This document shows positions 39,799 through 50,179 of a stretch of 64,000 nt of DNA, one piece after another; positions within the stretch are counted from its first letter, which is position 1; each line of letters starts with the position of its first letter. A model generated the notes under the pieces. That model saw only the letters and a list, made by a program, of their open reading frames with translations. It was not told the DNA's origin and searched no databases. Made by a program: the position numbers and the translations under genes. Origin of the DNA: Dehalococcoidia bacterium (GTDB lineage Bacteria; Chloroflexota; Dehalococcoidia; UBA6926); NCBI GenBank assembly GCA_963665385.1, contig OY762213.1, positions 786,913-850,912 on the forward strand, in the 5' to 3' direction.

Positions 39799-40767
39799 CT
39801 AGTCATCGTCCGGATTCGGCTCGTCATCCAGGATGATAAAGTCCCCTGCGCCCCGGGCGTAGAGCGAGTCCAGGAGCCGCTTGCCAATCTCTTCCGAATC
39901 TGTGGCTGCGTCCGTGGTGATGGACTCACGCAACACGACCGTTCCATCCGGCGTGGCGGCCATCGCCTCAACGGAAAGGCTGCCACCCTGCACTGTGGCG
40001 TAGCAGGCGAGAGGCGTGCGGCAGAAACCACCAACCGCTCGTAGAAATGAACGCTCGGCTTCGGCGGCGATTCTGTGGTCGCGTTCTTCGGTGAGCGCGG
40101 CGACGGCGCATGCCTGTTCGTTGCTCTCAAGACATTCGATACCGATCGCGCCCTGGCCGACGGCGGGGAGCATAACATCCGGCTCGAGAAATTCCGTGAT
40201 GACGTTGTCCATGCCGAGGCGTTGGAGACCAACGGCGGCCAGCACTGCAGCCTCCGCCTCGATTTCCCGACCCTCACCTGTCACCTTGCGCACGCGGGTG
40301 TCCACGTTGCCTCTCAGCAGCACAATCTCAAGATCAGGCCGGTGAGCGAGGACCTGCGCGGCGCGGCGGATGCTGCCGGTCCCGACCCGCGCGCCAGTGG
40401 GGAGTTCGTTGAGCCCCTGGCCGTCTCGCGAGACGAGAACGTCGCGAGGATCGTTTCGGGGCATGACCCCGGCCAACGTGTGGCCGGGCGGCAGGCGCGT
40501 GGGCAGGTCCTTGAGGCTGTGGACGGCAAAGTCGATCTCACCGTTCGCAAGCGCGATCTGGATCTCCTTGACGAACACGCCCTGCCCAAGGTCCGGAATC
40601 GGCGTTGTTGGTTGTCTCTCGGCTGTGGTTGTGATGCCAACAACCTCGAACTCAAGCGAGGGCTCTTTCGCCAGCACGGCCTGCATGAACAGTTCGGTCT
40701 GGATCATTGCGAGCGGGCTTCTCCGCGTGCCGACGCGCAGCACGCGACGGCTATCCCCGGAAGCCAT
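39799..40767 (-). CDS. hemC: Hydroxymethylbilane synthase
   Basis: GTRRSPLA, GVFVKE, VHSLKDLP, RGNVDTR, PAVGQGA, GFC cofactor Cys; TGATG overlap with the upstream gene. Confidence 0.95.
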   Translation of the reverse strand: MASGDSRRVLRVGTRRSPLAMIQTELFMQAVLAKEPSLEFEVVGITTTAERQPTTPIPDLGQGVFVKEIQIALANGEIDFAVHSLKDLPTRLPPGHTLAGVMPRNDPRDVLVSRDGQGLNELPTGARVGTGSIRRAAQVLAHRPDLEIVLLRGNVDTRVRKVTGEGREIEAEAAVLAAVGLQRLGMDNVITEFLEPDVMLPAVGQGAIGIECLESNEQACAVAALTEERDHRIAAEAERSFLRAVGGFCRTPLACYATVQGGSLSVEAMAATPDGTVVLRESITTDAATDSEEIGKRLLDSLYARGAGDFIILDDEPNPDDD

Positions 40768-42266
40768 CAGTCGCTCCGTGCCCATTCAAGGGCGGCGTCA
40801 ACAAGGCCATCGGCTGTGTGCTCGGTTGCCTCCTGCGCAACGCGCAAGCCAACATCTTCAGCTCCGCGAGACGTGGTAGGGCCGGCGGAGATGACAGGAA
40901 TACCGTCCAATAGTGAGCGATCATCGCCGAGCGCCTCAACAAGGTTGCGCGCCGTTGACGGACTTGTGAGCAGGACGGCGTCGATGCCCCGCTCAATGGC
41001 CGCCTTCGCCCGCTCTGCGAGGCTAGGCCCGGGCAGCGTTCTGTAGACGACGATGGGGGCTGGTTCAAGGCCATGCTCCCTAAGCGCGGCGGGCAGGGCA
41101 TCATCGGCAAGGTTGCCTCGCGGGAGCAGCACGGTGTCTGCCTGTCTGCACTCCATAGCGATCGCGTCCGCAAGCGCTATTGTCGTGAATCGCCCCGGGA
41201 CAAGATCGGCGTTTAGGCCATGGCGATTCAGGGCCGCCGCGGTAGCCGGGCCGATGGCCGCAATTCGCGCCGCCGCCAAAGACCGCGCGTCTCGCCCGCT
41301 ATCAAGCAGTCGGCTCATGAAGTAATCAACGCCGTTGACACTCGTAAAGGCAATCACGCGAAAGTCTGCCAGCCTCTCGATAGCTGAATCCAACTCAGCC
41401 CAATCCTCCGCGCCGTCGAATGCGACGGCGGGCACATGGACGACCTCCGCCCCCGCGTCATCCAGCAACATGATCAGCTCTGCTGCCCGCGTCTCTCCGC
41501 GCAACACCATCAGGCGGTGTCCGAAGAGCGGCTTCTTCTCCAGCCAACCGATGCTGTCCCGGAGCCCGACAACGTTGCCGCAGACGAAGATAGCCGGGGT
41601 GCGGATTCCAACCTCCGCCGACGCGCCAACAATCGTCTCAAGCGTGGCCGTCGTCGTCCGCTGGCGGGATGTTGTGGCCTGTTCAATGACTGCTGCGGGC
41701 GTGTCTTCGGGCCAGCCGGCCATCAGCATCGCCCTCACCGTATTGGCGAGGGTGCGGACTCCCATGAGGACGATTGATGTCTGGTTGGTCGGGTTCAACG
41801 GCTGAGCGTTGCGCGATTGCTGTCCCGTATAGATACGGACGGCAGAGGCAAGGTTGCGGTCTGTGGCGGGGATTCCCGCATACGCAGGACCGGCCAACGC
41901 GGACGTGACGCCGGGAACAACGTCAAAGCTGACGCCCGCCTCGGAAAGCGCCGCTGCCTCCTCTCCGCCGCGTCCAAAGAGGAACGGGTCGCCGCCCTTG
42001 AGTCGCACAACGCGCGCTCCCCCCCGCGCCCGTTCGATGAGCAGTTCGTTGATCTCCTCTTGCAAGTGCTCGCCGCCGCGTGACGGGTGCTTGCCGACAT
42101 CGACCATTTCCGCCTCGGGGCGCCCCTCGGCCAGTAGGGAGGGATTCACAAGCCTGTCATAGACGATGACATCAGCGCGACGGAGCAGTCTCGCGCCCCG
42201 CACCGTGATTAACCCGGGATCGCCGGGTCCCGCGCCCACAAGGTGGACGATGCCGCCGCTAGCCAC
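40767..42266 (-). CDS. cobA: Uroporphyrinogen-III C-methyltransferase / synthase fusion (CobA-HemD)
   Basis: VGAGPGDPGLIT, RLKGGDPFLFGRGGEE, PGVTS; C-terminal FTSVNGV, AIGPATA, TSPST. Confidence 0.93.
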   Translation of the reverse strand: MASGGIVHLVGAGPGDPGLITVRGARLLRRADVIVYDRLVNPSLLAEGRPEAEMVDVGKHPSRGGEHLQEEINELLIERARGGARVVRLKGGDPFLFGRGGEEAAALSEAGVSFDVVPGVTSALAGPAYAGIPATDRNLASAVRIYTGQQSRNAQPLNPTNQTSIVLMGVRTLANTVRAMLMAGWPEDTPAAVIEQATTSRQRTTTATLETIVGASAEVGIRTPAIFVCGNVVGLRDSIGWLEKKPLFGHRLMVLRGETRAAELIMLLDDAGAEVVHVPAVAFDGAEDWAELDSAIERLADFRVIAFTSVNGVDYFMSRLLDSGRDARSLAAARIAAIGPATAAALNRHGLNADLVPGRFTTIALADAIAMECRQADTVLLPRGNLADDALPAALREHGLEPAPIVVYRTLPGPSLAERAKAAIERGIDAVLLTSPSTARNLVEALGDDRSLLDGIPVISAGPTTSRGAEDVGLRVAQEATEHTADGLVDAALEWARSD

Positions 42267-42900
42267 CGTCCTCTTCCGTCAGAAGCGCGACGATGTGTTT
42301 TCGCAGGGCGGCTGCGTTGTCCGCGTCGATCATCGCCCTCGTCTCGCTATCGTTCAATGCGGTTTGCCAACGTCGTGACTTTGGCATCCTGTCATCGCGC
42401 CGCAACTCCTCCCGCACATCAGCTAGAACGTCGAGCAACATGCCGTAACCCTCTGGCAGTGCGGCATCAATCTCCCGGCGCAGGAACGACGCCATGGCGG
42501 GGCTGCGTCCATTAGTTGAAATGGCCACCGTCGCATCACCGCGCCGCACAAGGGCAGGGTAGATCCACGTGCAGAGATCGGTGATGTCTACGACGTTCAG
42601 CAGGCACTTTTCTCGCTCGGCCTCTTCGCGAATCTGCTCGCTGAGGGGGCGGTCATGCGTCGTTGCGGATATGGCCAGGAACGCGCCCGCAAGGTCGCCC
42701 GGCTGATAGCTGCGGGAGTGCAGGGTGATGTCTCCCCGCGCCGCCATCTCGGTGAAACGAGGGCGTTCTTCGGGGGAAATAACGGTCACGACCGCGCCCG
42801 CTTCGACAAGTGAGCCCGCCTTCATCTGCGCCTCATCGTCGTCGCCAATGACGACGCATCGGCGTCCGCGCAGGTCAAGATAGACGGGAAAGTAGCCCAT
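42259..42900 (-). CDS. Precorrin-2 dehydrogenase / sirohydrochlorin ferrochelatase (CysG N-terminal type)
   Basis: YFPVYLDL, NVVD..C, VAISTNGRSP. Confidence 0.9.
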   Translation of the reverse strand: MGYFPVYLDLRGRRCVVIGDDDEAQMKAGSLVEAGAVVTVISPEERPRFTEMAARGDITLHSRSYQPGDLAGAFLAISATTHDRPLSEQIREEAEREKCLLNVVDITDLCTWIYPALVRRGDATVAISTNGRSPAMASFLRREIDAALPEGYGMLLDVLADVREELRRDDRMPKSRRWQTALNDSETRAMIDADNAAALRKHIVALLTEEDGG

Positions 42901-42929
42901 GCACGTCTCGCTCGTTGGTGAAAGGCGGC

Positions 42930-43790
42930 CTATGTCCCCGCAGTGGCGGTTGCGTGCGACGGGACGGAGTCTTTTGCGTTCAGATAATCCGCCAGGGCGA
43001 GCACCAACGGCCCCATCTTGGGGTTGACGGGCTCGACGTGCGGTTCAACGCCGTGGTCGCGCAGCGCCCGTGTGCATACGGGTCCGACCGACGCCACGAC
43101 GATTCCAGAGGAAAGCGCTTCGCGAAGCTCGTCGGCAAGACCAACCTGCTCCGCGATACGGAAGAGATTGTGCGCCTGCGACTGCGTGGTCAGCATGAGG
43201 GCATCCACGTCTTGTGCGAGCATCAGTGCGATAGCATCGACGACGGGGCGCGTGTCTTCCGGGAGCTGCCACGAATAGAGGGATACTTCGAGAACGTCCG
43301 CCTCCAACGCCTCAAGCTCACCGCGCAGCCACGCGTTCACCTCGCCGTAGTGTTGAAGAACGACACGCTTGCCGCTCAGATCGATATCGGATGCCTTGAG
43401 CGCCGCCAGCAGGTCTTCGGATGTGTACGGAGACGGTGAGACGAGTGTGATGGGCACATTGAGCGGCTTGAGGACAGCCACCGGCTTTGGGCCGCGGCAG
43501 ATGACGGTTGTTTCGCGAAGGGCGTCAAGGAACTCATCCTTGCGGGCAAGTTCATCGGCCGCGTTGATCAGGGCGCGCGCGCCGACACCTGTGAGGAAGA
43601 CCGCCGCCTGAATTGTGTGGGCGCAGATGCCGTCGATAACGTCACGTACGTCCTGCCGCATTGGGAGCGCCGCCTCGCGCAAAGCTGGTGCGCTAATGGC
43701 CTCGCCGCCATGGCGAGCAACAAGATTGCCGAGTTCAGAGGGCATCCGCGCCTCAAGGACAACAATGCGCCGTCCTCCAAGGTCAGCCAT
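42930..43790 (-). CDS. hemD: Uroporphyrinogen-III synthase (stand-alone HemD-like)
   Basis: FLTGVG, RGPKP, VLQHYG, Y.W.LP, SVGPVC..AL, KMG.LV. Confidence 0.82.
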   Translation of the reverse strand: MADLGGRRIVVLEARMPSELGNLVARHGGEAISAPALREAALPMRQDVRDVIDGICAHTIQAAVFLTGVGARALINAADELARKDEFLDALRETTVICRGPKPVAVLKPLNVPITLVSPSPYTSEDLLAALKASDIDLSGKRVVLQHYGEVNAWLRGELEALEADVLEVSLYSWQLPEDTRPVVDAIALMLAQDVDALMLTTQSQAHNLFRIAEQVGLADELREALSSGIVVASVGPVCTRALRDHGVEPHVEPVNPKMGPLVLALADYLNAKDSVPSHATATAGT

Positions 43791-43845
43791 ATATGCCCCG
43801 CTTTCTCAGTCGATTCCGATCACTCAGCGGCTTGCGTGTTCGATT

Positions 43846-45648
43846 CTACGTCGCGCACTCGCCCTCGCCACGCTCCATGACGTATAGCACGGACTTGTCG
43901 TAGTCGATGTAGTGATCGAGGTTCGCCTTGTTGAGCGGCCCGACGTCCTGGTAATCCTTGATGATCTCCTCGAACGGCTCGCGACCCAGCCGGTGAGCGA
44001 AGTCCTTGAACAGCTCGCCGTCCTCGCGGTTGTCCCTGTAGTACCGGAGGAGGTGGAATACGGCCTCCGTCACCTTCTTGGCGGGAATCTTGCCGCGAGG
44101 CCGCACGCCAAAGCGCATGTCCGCGTTCTCATGGCTGCCGCCCAGGAAGACCTCATACGCCGGGATCTGTCCGCCGCCGGGGCCCTTGATGAACGCGCCG
44201 TGGAAGCCAATGTCCGATACGTGGTGGCGACCGCAGCCGTTTGGGCATCCACTCATCTTGATGTGCATCTGCTTGATGAGCGGGTCTTCCAGCAGATTCG
44301 TGTGGCCGTTGGGGCTGCGAACCGCATCCGCGACCGCCTTGTTCAGACCCATAGAGGACGTGATGCCGAGCTTGCAGCTGTCCGTGCCGGGGCAGGACGT
44401 CACGTCCGTGATCTGGTTCATGCCGCCTTCATGCAGGTCCAGCGCCACAAGCTCCTGGTACACGTCGTACAGATACGCATTCGGCACCCAGCGGAGCATC
44501 ATGTTCTGTTCCGGCGTGGTGCGGATACGGTAACTCGCGTACTTCCGGGAAATCTCGGACGTTCCGTAGTACTGCTCCGGCGAGAGGTCGCCGCGCGTCA
44601 CGGTGATGCCGACGAAGCTGTAGCCGTCCGCCTCTTGCGGGATGACGTTGGACTTTTTCCACGCCTGGAAAGCCGCGTCGTCCTCGCCGCGCGGCTCAAC
44701 GCCGGTTGGCAGGGCGGGGATGTCCGCCGCTTCGTCGTCGTGGAAGAGCAGGTAGTCCTTGTCCTCGTAGTCCTGTGCCCAGTCCTGCTGCAACTCTTCT
44801 TCGACCTGCTCGCGGAAGGAATCGATGCCCTCGGTGTGAATGAGAACCTTGATCCGTGCCTTCATCTTGTTGCGGCGCAGCCACGCCGTCCGGTTGAAGA
44901 CGCGCAGCATGGCTTCCGAGACGCGGAGGAACTCATCGACGGGCACGAACTCATAGATGGTCTCTGCAATCAGCGGCTGAATCGACGTGCCGCCGCCGAC
45001 CGTGATCTTGAAGCCCTTGACCTGCTCGCCGTCGATTTCCCTGACCCGGGCGACGAAGCCGATGTCATGCATTCCCACCGTCGCGCAGTCATGGTCGCCG
45101 CAGGAGAAGGCGGGCTTGACCTTGCGCGGCATGTGGAACGTGAAATCGCGTCGCACAAAGTTGCGGGCAAACGCGCCCATGTAGGGCAGGATGTCGAATG
45201 CCTGTTGGGGGTCGATGCCTGCCATCGGGCAGGCCGTGATATTGCGAACCGAGTTGCCGCAGGCCTCCTTCGTGCTCAGGCCGACGCTCTGGAGAAGGTG
45301 CATGGCCTTCGCCGCGTCCTCAAGCAGGAGGTGGTGGAGTTGGACGTTCTCACGCGTGGTTATGTGGCCCTTGCGGAGTGGCGCCCAATGCTCGGCAATC
45401 TGGCCGATGGCGTCCCACTGGTCTGCGTGTGCAAGGCCGCCGGGAATCTTGACGCGGAACATCTGCGCGTCAGGCTGCCTCTGGCCATAAACGCCGAGAC
45501 GCAGCCGGAAGGACATGAATTCGTCCTCCGGGATTTCTCCTGCGCGAAACTCCTTGACCTTGCCTTCGTAGTCGGCAATCTCCTCATCCAGGTACTGGAT
45601 GATCGAGGGTCGGGCGGAACGCTGTCCCGTTTCCGTTGTCGTAGCCAC
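43846..45648 (-). CDS. sir: Siroheme/[4Fe-4S] sulfite reductase
   Basis: GVYGQRQ, RVKIPGG, TTRENVQLH, CPGTDSCKLG and SGCPNGCG cluster ligands; within the cys operon. Confidence 0.9.
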   Translation of the reverse strand: MATTTETGQRSARPSIIQYLDEEIADYEGKVKEFRAGEIPEDEFMSFRLRLGVYGQRQPDAQMFRVKIPGGLAHADQWDAIGQIAEHWAPLRKGHITTRENVQLHHLLLEDAAKAMHLLQSVGLSTKEACGNSVRNITACPMAGIDPQQAFDILPYMGAFARNFVRRDFTFHMPRKVKPAFSCGDHDCATVGMHDIGFVARVREIDGEQVKGFKITVGGGTSIQPLIAETIYEFVPVDEFLRVSEAMLRVFNRTAWLRRNKMKARIKVLIHTEGIDSFREQVEEELQQDWAQDYEDKDYLLFHDDEAADIPALPTGVEPRGEDDAAFQAWKKSNVIPQEADGYSFVGITVTRGDLSPEQYYGTSEISRKYASYRIRTTPEQNMMLRWVPNAYLYDVYQELVALDLHEGGMNQITDVTSCPGTDSCKLGITSSMGLNKAVADAVRSPNGHTNLLEDPLIKQMHIKMSGCPNGCGRHHVSDIGFHGAFIKGPGGGQIPAYEVFLGGSHENADMRFGVRPRGKIPAKKVTEAVFHLLRYYRDNREDGELFKDFAHRLGREPFEEIIKDYQDVGPLNKANLDHYIDYDKSVLYVMERGEGECAT

Positions 45649-45799
45649 GTTATCCTCCCTCCGGATAGCTCCCTACAGGGTACGCCCGCCGGCGCTCCAA
45701 CTCAAATTATTTTCTCGGTTCGCCATAAAGTCTGGTTTGCCTATTCGCTCAGCGTTCCGTGTTCCGTCTTGAGTGGCCGCGTGAATGATGGCGGTGAGG

Positions 45800-47008
45800 C
45801 TATCCCTTCGCCGCCTCAATCAGAATCTGCGCCACCTCAGGCCGCGTGAACTCCATGGGCGGCACCTCGCCGCGCGACAGCATGTCGCGCACCTGCGTGC
45901 CGCTCAGGAACACACGCTGTTCCGGACCGTGCGGGCACGTCTTCATTGACGCCATGCCTTCGCACCGATTGCAGTAGAAGGAGTGGTCGAAGTACAGGGG
46001 CGTGATGCCGAGGTCTTCGGCCGGGATGCTGCGGAGCAGGTCCTGTGCGTCGTATGTGCCGTAGTAGTTGCCGACACCCGCGTGGTCGCGTCCGACGATG
46101 AAGTGCGTGCAGCCATAGTTCTTGCGAACAAGGGCATGGAACACGGCCTCGCGCGGGCCTGCGTAGCGCATCGCCGCTGGCAGCACCGACAAGTGGACGC
46201 GATCCTCGGGGTAGTACCCCTCGATCAACGCCTCGTAGCAGCGCATGCGCACGTCCGCGGGGATATCGTCCGGCTTAGTCTCGCCCACCAACGGGTGGAG
46301 GAGCAGGCCGTCGACTATCTCAAGCGCAGCCTTCTGGATGTACTCATGCGCGCGGTGCACGGGGTTGCGGGTCTGGAACCCGACAATGGTGCGCCAATGC
46401 CGTTCCGCAAAGGCGGCGCGTGTCTGCGCCGGGTCCTCGCGGTATGGCCGCAGCTCCGGCTCCAGGTTCTCACGCTCGATGACCGTGACGGAGCCGCCGA
46501 TGAGCATCTCATGTTGGCTGTACACGGAAGCGACGCCGGGATGCGCCTCCTCTGTCGTTGCGAAGACGTGTTGCGCCTCTACTTCCTTGTCGTAGTCGTA
46601 CACCTCGTCGACAGAAAGGATGGCGAGGTGGCGGCCGACGGTGTCCACGAGCACGACGTCCTGCCCACTCTTCAGGCCGCGCGCAGTGTCTGCGGGGGCC
46701 GAAAGGGTAATGGGCAGGCTCCAGAGCGTGCCGTCCGCCAAACGCATTTCACGAACCGTGCGCGAGTAGTCCGCCTGGTTCATGAATCCTGTTAGTGGGC
46801 TCATTGCGCCGACGGCGATGAGGTCAAGGTCGGCAGTCTCACGCATGCTCAGAGTAATGTGGGTCAGCTCCGGCGCGCGCTCCCGGATCTCCGTGGCCTG
46901 GTCAGGCGACGCGAATCGGTCGACCAGTGTGCCGCCGTGTGGGGCGATCGTTTCTTCCACGTCCGCGTGGGGAGAGGTGGTGTGAGTGTTAAGCGTGGTC
47001 GTTGTCAT
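45800..47008 (-). CDS. sat: Sulfate adenylyltransferase
   Basis: PHGG, SPLTGFM, FQTRNPVHRAHE, MRYAGPREA, IVGRDHAG, SGTQVR. Confidence 0.97.
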   Translation of the reverse strand: MTTTTLNTHTTSPHADVEETIAPHGGTLVDRFASPDQATEIRERAPELTHITLSMRETADLDLIAVGAMSPLTGFMNQADYSRTVREMRLADGTLWSLPITLSAPADTARGLKSGQDVVLVDTVGRHLAILSVDEVYDYDKEVEAQHVFATTEEAHPGVASVYSQHEMLIGGSVTVIERENLEPELRPYREDPAQTRAAFAERHWRTIVGFQTRNPVHRAHEYIQKAALEIVDGLLLHPLVGETKPDDIPADVRMRCYEALIEGYYPEDRVHLSVLPAAMRYAGPREAVFHALVRKNYGCTHFIVGRDHAGVGNYYGTYDAQDLLRSIPAEDLGITPLYFDHSFYCNRCEGMASMKTCPHGPEQRVFLSGTQVRDMLSRGEVPPMEFTRPEVAQILIEAAKG

Positions 47009-47011
47009 GAT

Positions 47012-47584
47012 CTAGGTCGCTGCCCCCGCCAACTCTCTGCTCGCGCCGGACGGGATGATGCCCCGCTCCTCAAGCGCGCCCAGCACCTTGCCGAGGCTCT
47101 CCTCGATCTCTTCCTGCTCGGTGTCGACAAGAACCTCGGGGGTCAACGGCTCCTCGTAAGGATCGGAAACCCCGGTGAAATTCTGAATCTCGCCCTTGAG
47201 CGCCTTCTCATACAGTCCCTTGACGTCGCGCTTGACGAGTTCATCAAGCGAGGCGTGTACGTGGACTTCAATGAAATCGCCGATCTGCTCCCGCACTTCG
47301 TCCCGAACCTCGCGGTAGGGAGAGATGGCGGACACGATGCTCACAACGCCGTTGCGCGTCAGCAGGTCGCTGACAAAGCCGATGCGGCGGATGTTGGTGT
47401 CACGGTCTTCCTTGCTGAATCCAAGTCCCTTGCTGAGGTTCGTGCGAACAACGTCGCCATCCAGCAGCTCGGACTTGATGCCCTGGTCTCGCAGAACCGC
47501 CAGCAGTCGCTCTGCAATGGTGCTCTTGCCGGCGCCCGAAAGCCCGGTGAACCAAACGGTCACTCCATTGTGGTTGGTGGTCAC
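47012..47584 (-). CDS. cysC: Adenylyl-sulfate kinase
   Basis: [32 protein letters not shown]; AGGAGG RBS. Confidence 0.97.
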
Positions 47585-47659
47585 TCTCAAATTCCTCCTG
47601 TGAGTTTTCCTTGCCGTTATCGGCGTTCTCGCGTGTTGTGTGATGTTGAGACAGCTACG

Positions 47660-48478
47660 TCAGTTCGCCGCAGTCGTTGATACGACCTTGCCCGTCTCAG
47701 GGTCGATGTGGATGCCGCATTCGACCTTGTCCTCGAAATCGGACCAGCGGCCTGCGCGCGGATCCTCGCCGGGCTCCACCGGGCGCGTGCAATTTGTGCA
47801 GCCGATGCTCGGGTAGCCCTGCTCGTGCAGCGCGTTGTAGGGGACGTTGTTCTCGCGGATGTAGTCCCAAACGTCATCCTCAGACCAGTTGGCCAGGGGA
47901 TTGATCTTGATGAGGTCGAACTTGGTGTCCCACGCGACAATCGCAACATCCTTGCGGGTGTCGCCCTGATCGCGACGCAGACCGGCGATCCATGCCTTCT
48001 GTCCGACAAGCGCCTGCTCATTCGGCGCAACCTTGCGAATCTCGCAGCAGAGGTCGGGATCAACCTTCCACAGCTCCGGCCCATGCAGGGCGGCCTGCTG
48101 CGCGACGGTCACGTCCGTCTTGAATCCGATGGGCTGGATGCCGTAACGACGCCCCACCTTGTCCTTGAGATTATGCGTATCCGGGAACAGGAAATCTGTG
48201 TCCACGTAGAAGACGGAGACCTCAGGGTTGATCTTCATGGCCATATCAAGCAGGACCATGCCGGACACGCCGCCGAAGCTGCACGCAAGAGTGATGTCCG
48301 GGAAGAAGTTCTCAACAGCCCAGCGGACAATCTCGCCCGGGTGCGCGTCTTCAAGCTGAGCGCTCACCTCCGCCAGCCGCTCCTCCGTCCATTCCGTCCG
48401 AAGTGCTTCCAGTGTTGCCATTTGCTCCGGTTCCCCCTCGATTCCTTCTGCGTTCGTGTACGGTGTTCGCTCTGTCAT
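47660..48478 (-). CDS. cysH: APS/PAPS reductase
   Basis: SFG, DT, CCEIRK, GLRRDQ, GYPSIGCTNCT, RAGRW, ECGIH. Alternative start at 48421 has a better RBS. Confidence 0.95.
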   Translation of the reverse strand: MTERTPYTNAEGIEGEPEQMATLEALRTEWTEERLAEVSAQLEDAHPGEIVRWAVENFFPDITLACSFGGVSGMVLLDMAMKINPEVSVFYVDTDFLFPDTHNLKDKVGRRYGIQPIGFKTDVTVAQQAALHGPELWKVDPDLCCEIRKVAPNEQALVGQKAWIAGLRRDQGDTRKDVAIVAWDTKFDLIKINPLANWSEDDVWDYIRENNVPYNALHEQGYPSIGCTNCTRPVEPGEDPRAGRWSDFEDKVECGIHIDPETGKVVSTTAAN

Positions 48479-48484
48479 TCAGAG

Positions 48485-48518
48485 AAAAGAAAACCGCCCC
48501 TTCTGTTGTGGGGCGGTT
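48485..48518 (-). terminator. Intrinsic terminator in the cys operon leader
   Basis: mRNA AACCGCCCC-ACAACAGAA-GGGGCGGTT followed by TTCTTTT, upstream of the first structural gene. Confidence 0.85.
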
Positions 48519-48579
48519 GATGCGCTGTTTCTGTGTTGCCAGAGATTCAGCGCTGCTCTGTCCTTGAGGCCTGCTATTG

Positions 48580-48690
48580 CTAGCGCGCGGCCTCCCGCCC
48601 CGGGACGGGCATGTAACACGAGCAGGTCACCGCGGCGCGGCGCGCCAGGGCGGCAACTGATGGACTATGTGTATTTGCGAAGGTGTTCAT
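48580..48690 (-). CDS. Putative Cys-containing leader peptide, 36 aa (MNTFANTHSPSVAALARRAAVTCSCYMPVPGREAAR)
   Basis: Translated by hand; lies between a near-consensus promoter and the leader terminator; Cys-Ser-Cys-Tyr-Met codons precede an antiterminator-capable GGGGCGG. Confidence 0.7.
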   Translation of the reverse strand: MNTFANTHSPSVAALARRAAVTCSCYMPVPGREAAR

Positions 48691-48714
48691 CGTTCTTGCG
48701 ATTTACTTATGGGC

Positions 48715-48743
48715 ACTATAAGCGCACTCCTATCTGATGTCAA
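48715..48743 (-). promoter_or_regulatory. Sigma70-type promoter of the cys operon
   Basis: TTGACA-17 nt-TATAGT on the minus strand. Confidence 0.8.
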
Positions 48744-48837
48744 TACGCTTGTGACGGATGTCACGCTCTAGCGATATGGTATAGTAATCTTACTTAATCG
48801 TAGCCTAGGGTTACAGGTAGATCTAAATCTTAAGTTA

Positions 48838-48879
48838 GGACACAAAGATGGCGGGCGTCAGCCCGCCATCTTTGTGTCC
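48838..48879. terminator. Perfect 19-bp hairpin
   Basis: GGACACAAAGATGGCGGGC-GTCA-GCCCGCCATCTTTGTGTCC, immediately after the stop of the 48889-49257 gene. Confidence 0.75.
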
Positions 48880-48888
48880 CCGGCCCCT

Positions 48889-49257
48889 TTATTCCTCCAG
48901 CTCGCTCACGTTGGCGCGCATGGCCTCCGCCTCTTCAAGCAGGCGGGCGAATAGCGGCCAGATATCCTCGTCGGTCGGGTCCATGGTGGAGATCGACATG
49001 ACGCGATGCAGCACACCGCTGCTGACGCCGACCGTCTCAGATTCCCCAACCTCCGGCAGTGCGACGCCCAGCGCCCGCGCCACAAGCTGCGCCTGCGTGC
49101 GTCCCAAGTCGTCGTTGGGGCAGATCACCATTGGGTTGCCGTCATGGAGTAGTCGTGTTTCGGCCTCGCTGCGCGACAGTGTCACTTCGATGCGGCGCTG
49201 GGGTCGGGCGAGTAGTTCTTCGGCGTAATCCCAGGCCTCGTCTTGCGGGGTGGTCAT
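48889..49257 (-). CDS. Hypothetical protein
   Basis: Typical codon usage, ATG 4 nt after the upstream stop, hairpin downstream; no recognisable motif. Confidence 0.7.
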   Translation of the reverse strand: MTTPQDEAWDYAEELLARPQRRIEVTLSRSEAETRLLHDGNPMVICPNDDLGRTQAQLVARALGVALPEVGESETVGVSSGVLHRVMSISTMDPTDEDIWPLFARLLEEAEAMRANVSELEE

Positions 49258-49261
49258 TGTG

Positions 49262-49627
49262 TTATTCAGCGGGGACGTAGGGAGTTGTCTTATCGAGCAG
49301 GAGGCACGGCTCGCCGGTCTGGGCAGAGTCGTCCAGGCTCCATGGGTTGTCGGAATCAAGCGGACGCGTGCGGATGCCGTCGTCGCCTCCAAAGATCAGC
49401 AGGGCGTGGCCCTCGCCGGAATCCTCGACGATCGCCGCGTAGGCGGGGCAGGGGCCGTCCTCGCCCCAGCCAATAACCTCCACCATCGCCAGTTCGCCGC
49501 GGATGCCGGGCGCTTCCACGCGAACGATCTCTTTCGGCTCTTCAACAACGCTGAAGATGCGGTGTAGGGAGAAGTCGCAGTTATTGCCCGCTTCTACTTC
49601 AACCTCAATGAACCTGGCTTTGGTCAC
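49262..49627 (-). CDS. Hypothetical acidic protein
   Basis: AAGGAGG RBS before GTG (49627), TACAAT -10 upstream; no recognisable motif. Confidence 0.72.
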   Translation of the reverse strand: MTKARFIEVEVEAGNNCDFSLHRIFSVVEEPKEIVRVEAPGIRGELAMVEVIGWGEDGPCPAYAAIVEDSGEGHALLIFGGDDGIRTRPLDSDNPWSLDDSAQTGEPCLLLDKTTPYVPAE

Positions 49628-49817: not shown

Positions 49818-50179
49818 TGGTGGAGGCGGGGGGGAGTTGAACCCCCCGTCCAAAGGCGGCTCCAGGTGCGGCGCTACAGGCTTAGTCGGTCATTAGGTTC
49901 TCGTCGCTCACGGCCCCGGCCGACAGGAATCACGAGCAACCAGCCGGCGATGATCTTTCGCCGCGCGTCACCGGCTGACGTGCGGCGGCACCCCGCTAAA
50001 ATGTCGCTCCGAACCGTCCGCAGGGGTAACGATCCGGAACGTCGCTACCTAAATCTTAGGCTGCGAGTGCGAGTTGCTTGTTGTTGCCAGCTACTCTTTG
50101 TGCCGCGGGATTAACGAGGTCACGGCGCCTCGGCCTGCTCACACACCCTCGCAGACCCCTGTCGAATCCGCGCGCCCCC
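49818..50179 (-). ncRNA. ssrA: tmRNA, tag (A)GNNKQLALAA
   Basis: 5' GGGGGCG..GGATTCGAC, 3' GGTTCAACTCC..CGCCTCCACCA with G3-U wobble; tag reading frame 50088-50056; adjacent to smpB. Confidence 0.95.

What the first reader, a model, noticed from the sequence alone, without database searches (positions are those of the whole stretch)
48485..48743. Candidate cysteine-sensing leader-peptide attenuator in front of the sulfate-assimilation/siroheme operon
Seen (minus strand): promoter TTGACA-17-TATAGT (48743-48715), then an ORF too short for the track (48690-48580, MNTFANTHSPSVAALARRAAVT-C-S-C-Y-M-PVPGREAAR*), then a terminator AACCGCCCC/GGGGCGGTT plus U-tract (48518-48485) directly before cysH. 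About 15 nt after the second Cys codon the leader holds GGGGCGG (48601-48595), an exact complement of the terminator 5' arm. That segment can alternatively be sequestered by CCCGTC (48609-48604, local hairpin) or CCGCCCTGG (48653-48645). Established: this is the geometry of trp/his/leu-type attenuators, and Cys-codon leader ORFs are known from Actinobacteria. Inference: a ribosome stalled on the Cys codons masks the protector arms and frees the antiterminator, so low Cys-tRNA allows read-through into cysH-cysC-sat-sir. I do not know of such a terminator-based Cys attenuator described in Chloroflexota.
Basis: partly seen in the sequence, partly recalled or inferred. Interest (0 to 1): 0.85.

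Follow-up and report, generated by a model that had tools for sequence, protein, structure and literature searches.

The report
Cysteine leader-peptide attenuator before cysH operon
A short upstream reading frame with clustered cysteine codons, followed by a transcription terminator, sits before the sulfate-assimilation genes of a small group of Dehalococcoidia and most likely turns these genes on when cysteine runs short; it is a new example of a well-known kind of switch.

Summary
On the minus strand there is a promoter (48743-48715), a 36-codon sORF (48690-48580) with Cys codons 23 and 25, an intrinsic terminator (48518-48485), and cysH-cysC-sat-sir.

The whole leader is kept in 22 of 22 genomes of the genus. 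It is also kept in a sister genus, where it sits before a TauE gene that precedes cysH, and in one record titled Latescibacterota.

The sORF evolves as coding sequence. pN/pS is 0.36 in frame and 1.1-1.5 out of frame, and all indels are multiples of three. It carries 2-4 clustered Cys codons, whereas Cys is 0.68% of the genome's codons.

GGGGCGG lies 14 or 17 nt after the last Cys codon in 24 of 24 leaders. It is complementary to the terminator's 5' arm. It pairs with that arm in every fold in which a ribosome covers a Cys codon.

In the genus the Cys codons also pair with a downstream linker (a 1:2-type helix). That helix excludes the antiterminator.

Weak points:
- The antiterminator pairs never vary, so covariation is silent.
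- The sORF has no clear Shine-Dalgarno sequence.
- There are no 3'-end or cysteine-response data.

Cys-codon uORFs with terminators have already been predicted before cysS elsewhere. Verdict: a probable Cys-tRNA-sensing transcription attenuator (about 0.7), and a new member of a known kind.

The parts
48750..48765 (-). Palindrome CGTGA-N6-TCACA, 7 nt upstream of the -35 hexamer. It is a candidate transcription-factor site and a possible second layer of control.
   Evidence: Read. A GTGA-N6-TCAC-like palindrome stands at the same place in about 20 of 23 leaders and in the sister genus. The likeness to CRP/FNR-type sites is recalled, not tested.
48715..48743 (-). Sigma-70-type promoter TTGACA-17-TATAGT
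   Evidence: scores 11 of 12 matches. TTGACA is kept in 23 of 23 leaders with a -10-like hexamer. The 4383-nt RNA-library contig of a relative in X18 ends about 73 nt beyond 48638, near 48711; the 1324-nt contig in X19 ends about 51 nt beyond it, near 48689. This is only a weak hint.
48580..48690 (-). Leader sORF, 36 codons plus TAG: MNTFANTHSPSVAALARRAAVTCSCYMPVPGREAAR
   Evidence: The frame is open in 24 of 24 leaders, with an invariant ATG 53-57 nt after the start of the -35 hexamer in the 22 genus leaders. All indels are multiples of 3. pN/pS is 0.36 in frame against 1.12 and 1.51 in the other frames for codons 2-15.
48616..48625 (-). Region 1: CUGCUCGUGU, holding Cys codons TGC (48624-48622) and TGT (48618-48616)
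   Evidence: There are 2 Cys codons in 17 leaders, 3 in 4 and 4 in 3, out of 24. Cys is 0.68% of codons genome-wide. The segment pairs with the linker 48561-48553.
48634..48646 (-). Small GC hairpin GGCGC-GCC-GCGCC inside the sORF, upstream of the Cys codons. It may be a pause hairpin, which is inference only.
   Evidence: Pairs 63-67 with 71-75 are kept in 22 of 22 leaders; 4 leaders have G-U at one pair. Synonymous sites are invariant here.
48597..48610 (-).
   Evidence: The 4 pairs are kept in 20-22 of 22 leaders, and also in L100 and the sister genus. L022 lacks it.
48595..48601 (-). GGGGCGG, the 5' strand of the antiterminator (region 2)
   Evidence: It is complementary to 48516-48510. 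It lies 14 or 17 nt after the first base of the last Cys codon in 24 of 24 leaders. The minor codons GGG (18.7% of Gly) and CGG (22% of Arg) are fixed here.
48566..48594 (-). Hairpin A, GAGGCC...GGCCUC, with the sORF stop codon (48582-48580) in its loop
   Evidence: It is kept in all 23 leaders, with some two-sided changes such as C-G to U-A. In the sister genus GGUUCG/CGAACC may pair at this place; that is read by eye, and the folds draw a different stem.
48553..48561 (-). Linker ACAGAGCAG, the partner of the Cys-codon region (helix X, the 1:2-type anti-antiterminator)
   Evidence: Duplex energies are -9.9 to -16.2 kcal/mol in 23 of 23 leaders. The helix is in the minimum-energy fold of the nascent RNA in 22 of 23. 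It is not in the fold of the sister genus.
48522..48553 (-). Hairpin B, GCGCUG...CAGCGC, with an inner stem UCUG/CAGA
   Evidence: The inner stem changes on both sides between clades: UCUG/CAGA, CCUG/CAGG, GACU/AGUC, GUCUCUG/CAGAGAC.
48485..48518 (-). Intrinsic terminator: AACCGCCCC, a 9-nt loop, GGGGCGGUU and a U-tract. Its 5' arm (48516-48510) is also the 3' strand of the antiterminator.
   Evidence: Read. It is kept in 24 of 24 leaders and is in the minimum-energy fold of the full leader in 23 of 23.
47660..48421 (-). cysH (phosphoadenylyl-sulfate reductase), the first gene of the operon; SD GAGGGGGA at 48439-48432
   Evidence: Pfam PF01507, E 6.8e-50. NCBIfam NF002537, 258 bits against a cut-off of 154.
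40767..47590 (-). Rest of the operon: cysC 47012-47590, sat 45800-47008, sulfite/nitrite reductase 43846-45648, HemD-like 42930-43790, sirC-like 42259-42900, cobA-hemD fusion 40767-42266
   Evidence: Pfam matches.

Best explanation
This is a ribosome-mediated, Cys-tRNA-sensing transcription attenuator of the trp/his/leu type. It controls the assimilatory sulfate reduction and siroheme operon.

Transcription starts about 17 nt before the sORF. A ribosome translates the sORF while RNA polymerase moves on.

When charged tRNA-Cys is scarce, the ribosome stalls on the Cys codons (48624-48616):
- It covers region 1 and the GCCC arm of the local hairpin.
- GGGGCGG (48601-48595), just past its leading edge, stays free.
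- GGGGCGG pairs with CCGCCCC (48516-48510) as soon as that strand is made. The pairing closes a junction around hairpins A and B.
- The terminator cannot form, and polymerase reads into cysH-cysC-sat-sir.

When Cys-tRNA is plentiful, the ribosome runs to the stop codon in the loop of hairpin A:
- There it covers or blocks GGGGCGG.
- After release, the Cys-codon region pairs with the linker 48561-48553 (helix X) and GCCC pairs with GGGC.
- Both pairings exclude the antiterminator, so the terminator forms and transcription ends near 48485.

Shown here: conservation, coding constraint, geometry, and alternative folds in silico. Inferred: stalling, timing, and the response to cysteine.
For: Conservation:
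- The leader is present in 22 of 22 loci of the genus.
- It is present in a sister genus, upstream of a TauE/SafE gene that precedes cysH.
- It is present in one record titled Latescibacterota.
- The antiterminator-terminator pattern was found in 19 of 401 genomes of the class. All 19 are in one family; 0 of 377 genomes elsewhere have it, and the reversed control gave 0.

The sORF is coding:
- Variable columns by codon position are 17, 18 and 27 of 39, and all indels are multiples of 3.
- For codons 2-15, pN/pS is 0.36 in frame against 1.12 and 1.51 out of frame. The other two frames hold stops in 23 and 20 of 23 leaders.

Regulatory codons:
- There are 2-4 Cys within 3-5 codons in 24 of 24 leaders. 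The insertions at that spot add more Cys codons.
- Cys is 0.68% of codons in the genome.

Geometry:
- The last Cys codon lies 14 or 17 nt before GGGGCGG in 24 of 24 leaders.
- GGGGCGG lies 12-18 nt before the stop codon.

RNA constraint:
- Synonymous divergence drops from 0.61 (codons 2-15) to 0.18 (codons 16-36).
- The minor codons GGG and CGG are fixed.
- In L022 and L019 the terminator's 3' arm has lost partners, while CCGCCCC stays intact.

Folds:
- When only the RNA 3' of a ribosome on any Cys codon is folded, and the 3' arm is not yet made, the antiterminator forms in 23 of 23 leaders (p >= 0.90). The same holds in the sister genus.
- Helix X is in the fold of the nascent RNA in 22 of 23 leaders. 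Helix X together with the terminator is in the full-length fold in 21 of 23.

Context:
- No Rfam family matches the leader.
- The same genome has a T-box-like leader with a terminator before an ilvB-like gene: 83.8 bits, under the gathering score of 93, E 9e-19.
- RNA-library contigs of a relative join the leader, the terminator and cysH.
Against: - Six of the 7 antiterminator pairs never vary, so covariation says nothing. RNAalifold found 1 compensatory pair among 40.
- With the terminator's 3' arm present, equilibrium folds keep the terminator even under a ribosome mask. The antiterminator wins at some Cys position in only 5 of 23 leaders, so the switch must be kinetic.
- Without any ribosome, the nascent RNA already forms the antiterminator in 17 of 23 leaders. 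The protectors are weak, with energy gaps of 0-10.6 kcal/mol. The off state therefore depends on a ribosome reaching the stop codon, which is not shown.
- Helix X beats shuffled linkers at 0.05 in only 8 of 23 leaders. It is not in the fold of the sister genus.
- The sORF has no clear Shine-Dalgarno sequence.
- Most leaders (17 of 24) hold only two, non-adjacent Cys codons.
- The peptide is longer and more conserved than classical leader peptides.
- No 3'-end, ribosome or cysteine-response data exist. The RNA data are contigs and cannot show ends or levels.
Confidence: 0.7

Rival explanations
1. The leader is a ligand- or protein-binding RNA switch. It would be a three-way junction: a closing helix GGGGCGG:CCGCCCC with hairpins A and B. 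It would sense a sulfur metabolite or a regulator. The sORF would be incidental, or would only help unfold the RNA.
For: The closing helix shares a strand with the terminator, which is the usual layout of transcriptional riboswitches. Hairpins A and B are conserved, with some two-sided changes. The linker GACAC between them is kept in 22 of 23 leaders. Synonymous sites are constrained in the 3' half of the sORF.
Against: The frame, the ATG, the 3n indels and the in-frame pN/pS of 0.36 show selection on translation. The Cys cluster expands by whole Cys codons. The conserved linker is explained by its pairing with the Cys codons. The junction region is not alignable in the sister genus, while the sORF, GGGGCGG and the terminator are kept. 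No Rfam family matches.
Confidence: 0.1
2. The sORF encodes a small protein or an arrest peptide with a function of its own, for example a Cys-x-Cys thiol or metal peptide. The hairpin simply ends that small gene. cysH expression would be set mainly by a transcription factor at the palindrome 48765-48750.
For: The peptide is 34-39 aa long and conserved (13 invariant columns of 39 in 19 sequences). Codons 2-15 show purifying selection where RNA constraint is weakest, and S-P-S is kept through synonymous changes. A conserved palindrome lies next to the -35 hexamer.
Against: No promoter-like site lies in the 64 nt between the terminator and cysH. RNA-library contigs run from the leader into cysH. 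The leader always sits at the head of the sulfate-assimilation operon, even when another gene comes first. Related peptides were found only in this lineage: 2 real hits among 1.84 billion representatives. Part of the peptide conservation can come from RNA pairing (ACACAUAG with the Cys region).
Confidence: 0.1
3. The sORF senses Cys-tRNA but acts on translation or mRNA stability, or through Rho, as the mycobacterial polycysteine sORFs do. In that case the hairpin with its U-tract is not the regulated step.
For: The only experimentally tested Cys sORF system works through ribosome-binding-site sequestration (abstract of 10.1101/834739). Actinobacterial Cys leaders lack terminators (passages of PMC1262725).
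Against: A canonical GC-rich stem with a U-tract is kept in 24 of 24 leaders, with an exact upstream competitor. The cysH SD lies 46 nt past the U-tract and is not in a stable structure (z = -1.38, centroid mostly open).
Confidence: 0.05

Closest known systems
E. coli trp operon attenuator (trpL), the classical 1:2 / 2:3 / 3:4 leader-peptide attenuator (established knowledge, recalled; summarised in a passage of PMC4007540)
   Same: A translated leader ORF carries codons for the pathway's end product inside region 1. There are mutually exclusive pairings for anti-antiterminator, antiterminator and terminator. The antiterminator strand starts just past the edge of a ribosome stalled on the regulatory codons. 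An intrinsic terminator precedes the first gene.
   Different: The amino acid sensed is Cys. The peptide has 34-39 aa rather than 14. The Cys codons are interspersed (C-S-C), not tandem, in most members. Region 2 is split: GGGGCGG and the linker are separated by hairpin A, which holds the stop codon. The antiterminator closes a junction with two conserved hairpins. There is no sequence relationship.
uORFC-8-2 motif upstream of cysS in Rhodobacterales (PMC8632094, passage read)
   Same: It is a predicted ribosome-mediated attenuator with a conserved AUG, conserved Cys codons inside a stem, and a terminal stem with a U run read as an intrinsic terminator.
   Different: It controls cysS, not sulfate assimilation; cysS of this genome has no leader. 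Its two Cys codons are tandem, at positions 14-15. It occurs in Alphaproteobacteria. The structure is different. Homology was not tested because no model was on hand; Rfam gave no hit.
Polycysteine leaderless sORFs of mycobacteria (10.1101/834739, abstract and outline read) and the Cys leader peptides predicted in Actinobacteria (PMC1262725, passages read)
   Same: Cys-codon sORFs stand at the head of cysteine and sulfur metabolism operons, and ribosome stalling acts as the cysteine sensor. This is the only such system with experimental support.
   Different: Those sORFs are leaderless and act by freeing a sequestered ribosome-binding site (translational control), with no conserved terminators. 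Here the ATG lies 24 nt after the -10 hexamer, a conserved intrinsic terminator is present, and the cysH SD is not sequestered.
Deinococcus deserti cysS leader peptide (PMC4007540, passages read)
   Same: It is a predicted transcription attenuation leader peptide with two Cys residues.
   Different: It has 10 aa, is leaderless, stands upstream of cysS, and is a prediction only.

Membership tests
Leader-peptide (ribosome-mediated) transcription attenuators, trp/his/leu type | A short ORF in the 5' leader that is translated | tested here: met
   The frame is open in 24 of 24 leaders, with an invariant ATG and 3n indels only. pN/pS is 0.36 in frame against 1.12 and 1.51 out of frame. Translation itself was not observed, and there is no clear SD.
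Leader-peptide (ribosome-mediated) transcription attenuators, trp/his/leu type | Clustered codons for the amino acid made by the controlled pathway | tested here: met
   There are 2-4 Cys codons within 3-5 codons in 24 of 24 leaders, against 0.68% Cys genome-wide. The operon makes sulfide for cysteine synthesis.
Leader-peptide (ribosome-mediated) transcription attenuators, trp/his/leu type | An intrinsic terminator between the sORF and the first structural gene | tested here: met
   A 9-bp stem (7 G-C pairs) with a U-tract at 48518-48485. It is kept in 24 of 24 leaders.
Leader-peptide (ribosome-mediated) transcription attenuators, trp/his/leu type | An antiterminator that shares a strand with the terminator and is left free by a ribosome stalled on the regulatory codons | tested here: inconclusive
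   The sequence, the spacing (14 or 17 nt) and the folds fit in 23 of 23 leaders plus the sister genus. However, 6 of 7 pairs never vary, so there is no covariation test. At equilibrium with the 3' arm present, the terminator wins.
Leader-peptide (ribosome-mediated) transcription attenuators, trp/his/leu type | An anti-antiterminator (1:2) pairing that involves the regulatory codons | tested here: inconclusive
   Helix X is in the nascent fold in 22 of 23 leaders. It beats shuffles at 0.05 in only 8 of 23 and is absent from the sister genus fold. The local GCCC/GGGC hairpin is kept.
Leader-peptide (ribosome-mediated) transcription attenuators, trp/his/leu type | Read-through rises when the charged tRNA is scarce | not testable with these tools
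   This needs Term-seq, reporters or coupled in vitro assays.
Mycobacterial polycysteine leaderless sORF attenuators | A leaderless sORF (the transcript starts at AUG/GUG) | tested here: not met
   The ATG lies 24 nt after the -10 hexamer in the window, and at a similar distance in relatives.
Mycobacterial polycysteine leaderless sORF attenuators | Control by sequestration of the downstream ribosome-binding site | tested here: not met
   The cysH SD is 46 nt past the U-tract and is not held in a stable structure.
uORFC-8-2 motif (cysS, Rhodobacterales) | Location upstream of cysS, with tandem Cys codons at positions 14-15 | tested here: not met
   The leader heads the cysH operon, with Cys at codons 23 and 25. 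cysS of this genome overlaps the preceding gene and has no leader.
Known riboswitches and T-box leaders (Rfam 15) | A match to a curated covariance model | tested here: not met
   There is no match in 48485-48743 at E <= 10. The 8 weak matches all lie at 48835-49000. No match in the leader reaches a gathering score.

The most novel reading that the evidence does not exclude
The leader peptide may be more than a spacer. It is long (34-39 aa) and under purifying selection even where the RNA is least constrained. S-P-S sits 12-16 residues before the Cys codons, and M-P-x-x-G-R follows them. The nascent chain could therefore act in the exit tunnel as an arrest peptide that tunes stalling or senses a small thiol such as free cysteine, in the manner of TnaC. 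Alternatively, the released Cys-x-Cys peptide could act in trans. The switch would then integrate Cys-tRNA charging with a second signal.
Probability: 0.1. Interest if true: 0.7.

Novelty: new member of a known kind. Interest (0 to 1): 0.45.

Why it matters
If confirmed, this would be a clear case of classical leader-peptide transcription attenuation in Chloroflexota (Dehalococcoidia). It would also be the first one tied to the sulfate-assimilation operon rather than to cysS. I found no paper describing such a case in the searches.

It would show that uncultured Dehalococcoidia set sulfur assimilation by Cys-tRNA charging. The laid RNA runs that hold a relative are labelled sponge metagenome. 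It would also add a well-defined family of 24 leaders in two genera, plus one outlier, for annotation pipelines that miss such sORFs.

The layout is compact and easy to mutate: Cys codons inside region 1, a split region 2, and the stop codon in a hairpin loop. That makes it a useful test case for kinetic attenuation models. It does not change the concept, because Cys-codon attenuators are already known in other forms.

Tried and rejected
Known RNA families. Rfam at E <= 10 on 48300-49000, and at gathering level on the whole window, gave nothing in the leader.

Other copies in the genome. nhmmer with the leader alignment found only the leader itself (E 1e-65; next best 0.63).

A crude scan for perfect-stem terminators in 5' regions gave 10 rows for 8 genes. 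None had a Cys sORF, and one turned out to be T-box-like. The gene calls in that scan were made by longest ORF only.

cysS has no leader.

Wider homologues:
- BLAST of the leader against 301 genomes of the class gave real hits only in the genus (16 of 16 plus own). The other 34 genomes gave GC-rich matches of 19-45 nt with E >= 8e-5.
- Of the 39 pattern hits in genome contigs, 22 were real leaders by nhmmer (E <= 3e-24) and 17 were not.
- The metagenome scan gave 1 hit, the same sequence as L002.
- The upstream regions of cysH in 7 more distant genomes (L024-L030) showed no such leader. There cysH is not at an operon head, or the contig is cut.

Peptide search. The profile search of 1.84 billion representatives gave 4 hits:
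- P0002 and P0003 are the same family.
- P0001 (5820 aa, no matched stretch) and P0004 (a repeat protein) I take as unrelated.

CCGCCCTGG (48653-48645) as a protector is rejected, because it is present in only 3 of the 22 genus leaders (L001, L003, L004).

Column-wise pair counts for helix X were not made. The MAFFT register of the linker differs between clades, and a hand-fitted alignment would bias the count. Per-sequence duplexes are given instead.

Translational control through the cysH SD: no stable sequestering structure was found.

RNA runs. Only Logan contigs were on hand. The parts without cover (48392-48477, and 48640 onward) say nothing about transcript ends, and no attenuated 3' end can be read from them. 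X17 and X20 cover cysH only.

Supplements of the cited papers were not seen. They may list further Cys leader candidates.
Full report
**What is in the sequence.**
Read on the minus strand, the region holds these elements in order:
- a near-consensus promoter, TTGACA 48743-48738, 17 nt, TATAGT 48720-48715 (11 of 12 matches);
- an ATG at 48690, 24 nt after the -10 hexamer;
- a 36-codon frame ending at TAG 48582-48580, with TGC at 48624-48622 and TGT at 48618-48616;
- GGGGCGG at 48601-48595;
- two hairpins;
- a terminator: AACCGCCCC 48518-48510, a 9-nt loop, GGGGCGGUU 48500-48492, and a U-tract to 48485.

The scanner missed the terminator only because its loop limit is 8.

The longest cysH frame starts at 48478. 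The start that is kept in relatives, and that has a strong SD (GAGGGGGA, 48439-48432), is ATG 48421.

Downstream genes are cysH, cysC, sat, a sulfite/nitrite reductase and siroheme genes (Pfam; NCBIfam NF002537 for cysH). No Rfam family matches the leader. The leader folds better than 199 of 200 shuffles.

**Who has it.**
- cysH was found in 21 of 21 other genomes of the genus. All 22 loci, the own genome included, carry the same leader at the same place.
- Records with the leader are titled Dehalococcoidia or Chloroflexota MAGs.
- BLAST of the leader over 301 genomes of the class gave real hits only in the genus.
- A pattern for the antiterminator plus terminator hit 19 of 401 class genomes. 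All 19 are in one family (genus g1 17 of 21 plus own; genus g2 1 of 1). It hit 0 of 377 genomes elsewhere, and the reversed control gave 0. The order has only 30 genomes.
- In the sister genus (G022) the leader is not next to cysH. It sits upstream of a TauE/SafE gene that precedes cysH. The leader therefore follows the head of the operon.
- One more copy lies in a 5.5-Mb record titled Latescibacterota (L078/L100). There it is followed by cysH-cysC-sat at 75-85% protein identity.
- The leader is single-copy in the own genome, and cysS has no leader.

**Is the sORF translated?**
- The frame is open and the ATG invariant in 24 of 24 leaders.
- Every indel inside the frame is a multiple of 3: 6 nt near the N-terminus and 3 nt at the Cys cluster. 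Downstream of the stop codon, indels of 1, 2 and 4 nt are common.
- Variable columns by codon position are 17, 18 and 27 of 39.
- For codons 2-15, pN/pS is 0.36 in frame, against 1.12 and 1.51 in the other frames. Those frames hold stops in 23 and 20 of 23 leaders.
- From codon 16 on, synonymous divergence falls from 0.61 to 0.18. The 3' half of the frame is therefore also under RNA-level constraint.
- The weak point is initiation. There is no clear Shine-Dalgarno sequence before the ATG.

**The Cys cluster.**
- 17 leaders have C-S-C, 4 have three Cys and 3 have four (CSCCC, CLCCC).
- The length changes at this spot are whole Cys codons.
- Cys is 0.68% of codons in the genome, and TGT is the rarer Cys codon at 24%.

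**Geometry.**
- The first base of the last Cys codon lies 14 or 17 nt before GGGGCGG in 24 of 24 leaders.
- From established footprint sizes (recalled, not measured here), a ribosome covers about 12-13 nt past the first A-site base. A ribosome with that codon in the A site would therefore cover the GCCC arm of the local hairpin and leave GGGGCGG just free.
- GGGGCGG ends 12 nt (18 leaders), 15 nt (2) or 18 nt (4) before the stop codon. The stop codon always lies in the loop of hairpin A. A terminating ribosome would cover or abut GGGGCGG.

**Alternative folds.**
The terminator's 5' arm CCGCCCC can pair either with its 3' arm or with GGGGCGG, 81-88 nt upstream.
- When only the RNA 3' of a ribosome on any Cys codon is folded, and the 3' arm is not yet made, the antiterminator is in the minimum-energy fold in 23 of 23 leaders (p >= 0.90). 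The same holds in the sister genus.
- In the genus, the Cys-codon stretch CUGCUCGUGU is complementary to the linker between hairpins A and B: ACAGAGCAG in the window, ACACGAGC or ACACAGCAG in other clades. The duplex energies are -9.9 to -16.2 kcal/mol.
- This helix X crosses the antiterminator, so the two exclude each other.
- Helix X is in the fold of the nascent RNA, before CCGCCCC is made, in 22 of 23 leaders. Helix X together with the terminator is in the full-length fold in 21 of 23.
- This gives the classical 1:2 / 2:3 / 3:4 logic, with the regulatory codons inside region 1.
CCGCCCTGG is not.

**What does not fit, or is not shown.**
- Six of the 7 antiterminator pairs never vary, so covariation is silent. 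Only 1 of 40 consensus pairs shows a two-sided change in the MAFFT alignment. The inner stem of hairpin B clearly changes on both sides between clades.
- With the 3' arm present, the terminator wins at equilibrium even under a ribosome mask. The antiterminator appears in only 5 of 23 leaders. The switch must therefore be kinetic, as it is for trp.
- Naked nascent RNA forms the antiterminator in 17 of 23 leaders. The gap to the best fold without it is 0-10.6 kcal/mol. Termination in cysteine-replete cells would therefore need the ribosome at the stop codon.
- Helix X beats shuffled linkers at 0.05 in only 8 of 23 leaders. It is not in the sister genus fold, where the Cys region pairs upstream instead.

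**Context that helps.**
- The same genome has a T-box-like leader with a terminator before an ilvB-like gene. It scores 83.8 bits, below Rfam's gathering score of 93, with E 9e-19. Terminator-based attenuation is thus plausibly in use in this organism.
- RNA-library contigs of a relative (under 90% alike), in two runs of one study, join cysH and the leader. The X18 contig ends about 73 nt beyond 48638, near 48711 and the predicted transcription start. The X19 contig ends about 51 nt beyond it, near 48689. Contigs cannot prove ends or transcription, so this is only a weak hint that read-through transcripts start at this promoter.

**Known relatives in kind.**
- Cys leader peptides without terminators were predicted in Actinobacteria (PMC1262725, passages read).
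- Polycysteine leaderless sORFs act as cysteine-responsive translational attenuators in mycobacteria (10.1101/834739, abstract and outline read).
- A 10-aa, two-Cys leader was predicted before cysS of Deinococcus deserti (PMC4007540, passages read).
- The uORFC-8-2 motif before cysS of Rhodobacterales has tandem Cys codons in a stem, plus a terminator stem (PMC8632094, passage read).
- My searches found no paper on a Cys attenuator in Chloroflexota or before a cysH operon with an intrinsic terminator. The library does not hold most subscription journals, and supplements were closed.

**Verdict.**
I put about 0.7 on a Cys-tRNA-sensing, ribosome-mediated transcription attenuator. It is a new, lineage-restricted member of a known kind. 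It is of moderate interest and lends itself to direct tests.

Noticed in passing
window 48750-48765 (-): Palindrome CGTGA-N6-TCACA, 7 nt upstream of the -35 hexamer. It is kept in about 20 of 23 leaders and in the sister genus. It looks like a CRP/FNR-type operator (likeness recalled, not tested) and suggests that a transcription factor acts on the same promoter.
   Followed up: partly
window 48770-48885 (-), hairpin 48838-48879: About 110 nt between the upstream gene and the palindrome are present in this genome but not in its closest relatives (L002-L004). The stretch includes a long perfect hairpin (ACAAAGAUGGCGGGC / GCCCGCCAUCUUUGU) without a U-tract. All 8 weak Rfam matches fall here. It may be an insertion or a terminator of the upstream gene.
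   Followed up: no
window 49818-50179 (-): tmRNA gene (Rfam RF00023, 166 bits), two genes upstream of the leader.
   Followed up: no
L123 157-399 (-) = genome C1 about 752156-752398, outside the window: T-box-like leader (RF00230, 83.8 bits, below the gathering score of 93; full model length) with an intrinsic terminator, before an acetolactate-synthase-like gene.
   Followed up: partly
L078 / L100 (G310): A 5.5-Mb record titled Latescibacterota carries the same leader (peptide with CSCCC and a further Cys at codon 10). It also carries cysH-cysC-sat at 75-85% identity to the window, in a locus of 68.6% G+C. This points to horizontal transfer of the regulated operon, or to a label or assembly problem.
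   Followed up: partly
L023 2304-3089 (-) (G022, sister genus): A TauE/SafE sulfite-exporter-family gene is inserted between the leader and cysH. The homologue of the window's upstream gene (48889-49392) still precedes the leader, so synteny is kept.
   Followed up: partly
window 48421-48478 (-): The longest cysH frame starts at ATG 48478, just after the terminator's U-tract. The conserved start with an SD is 48421, so automatic annotation may extend cysH by 19 codons.
   Followed up: partly
window 40767-43790 (-): The operon holds two HemD-like domains: a stand-alone gene at 42930-43790 and a cobA-hemD fusion at 40767-42266, next to a sirC-like gene.
   Followed up: no
window 48889-49392 (-): The 167-aa upstream gene has no Pfam or NCBIfam match. 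It is nevertheless conserved next to the leader in both genera.
   Followed up: no
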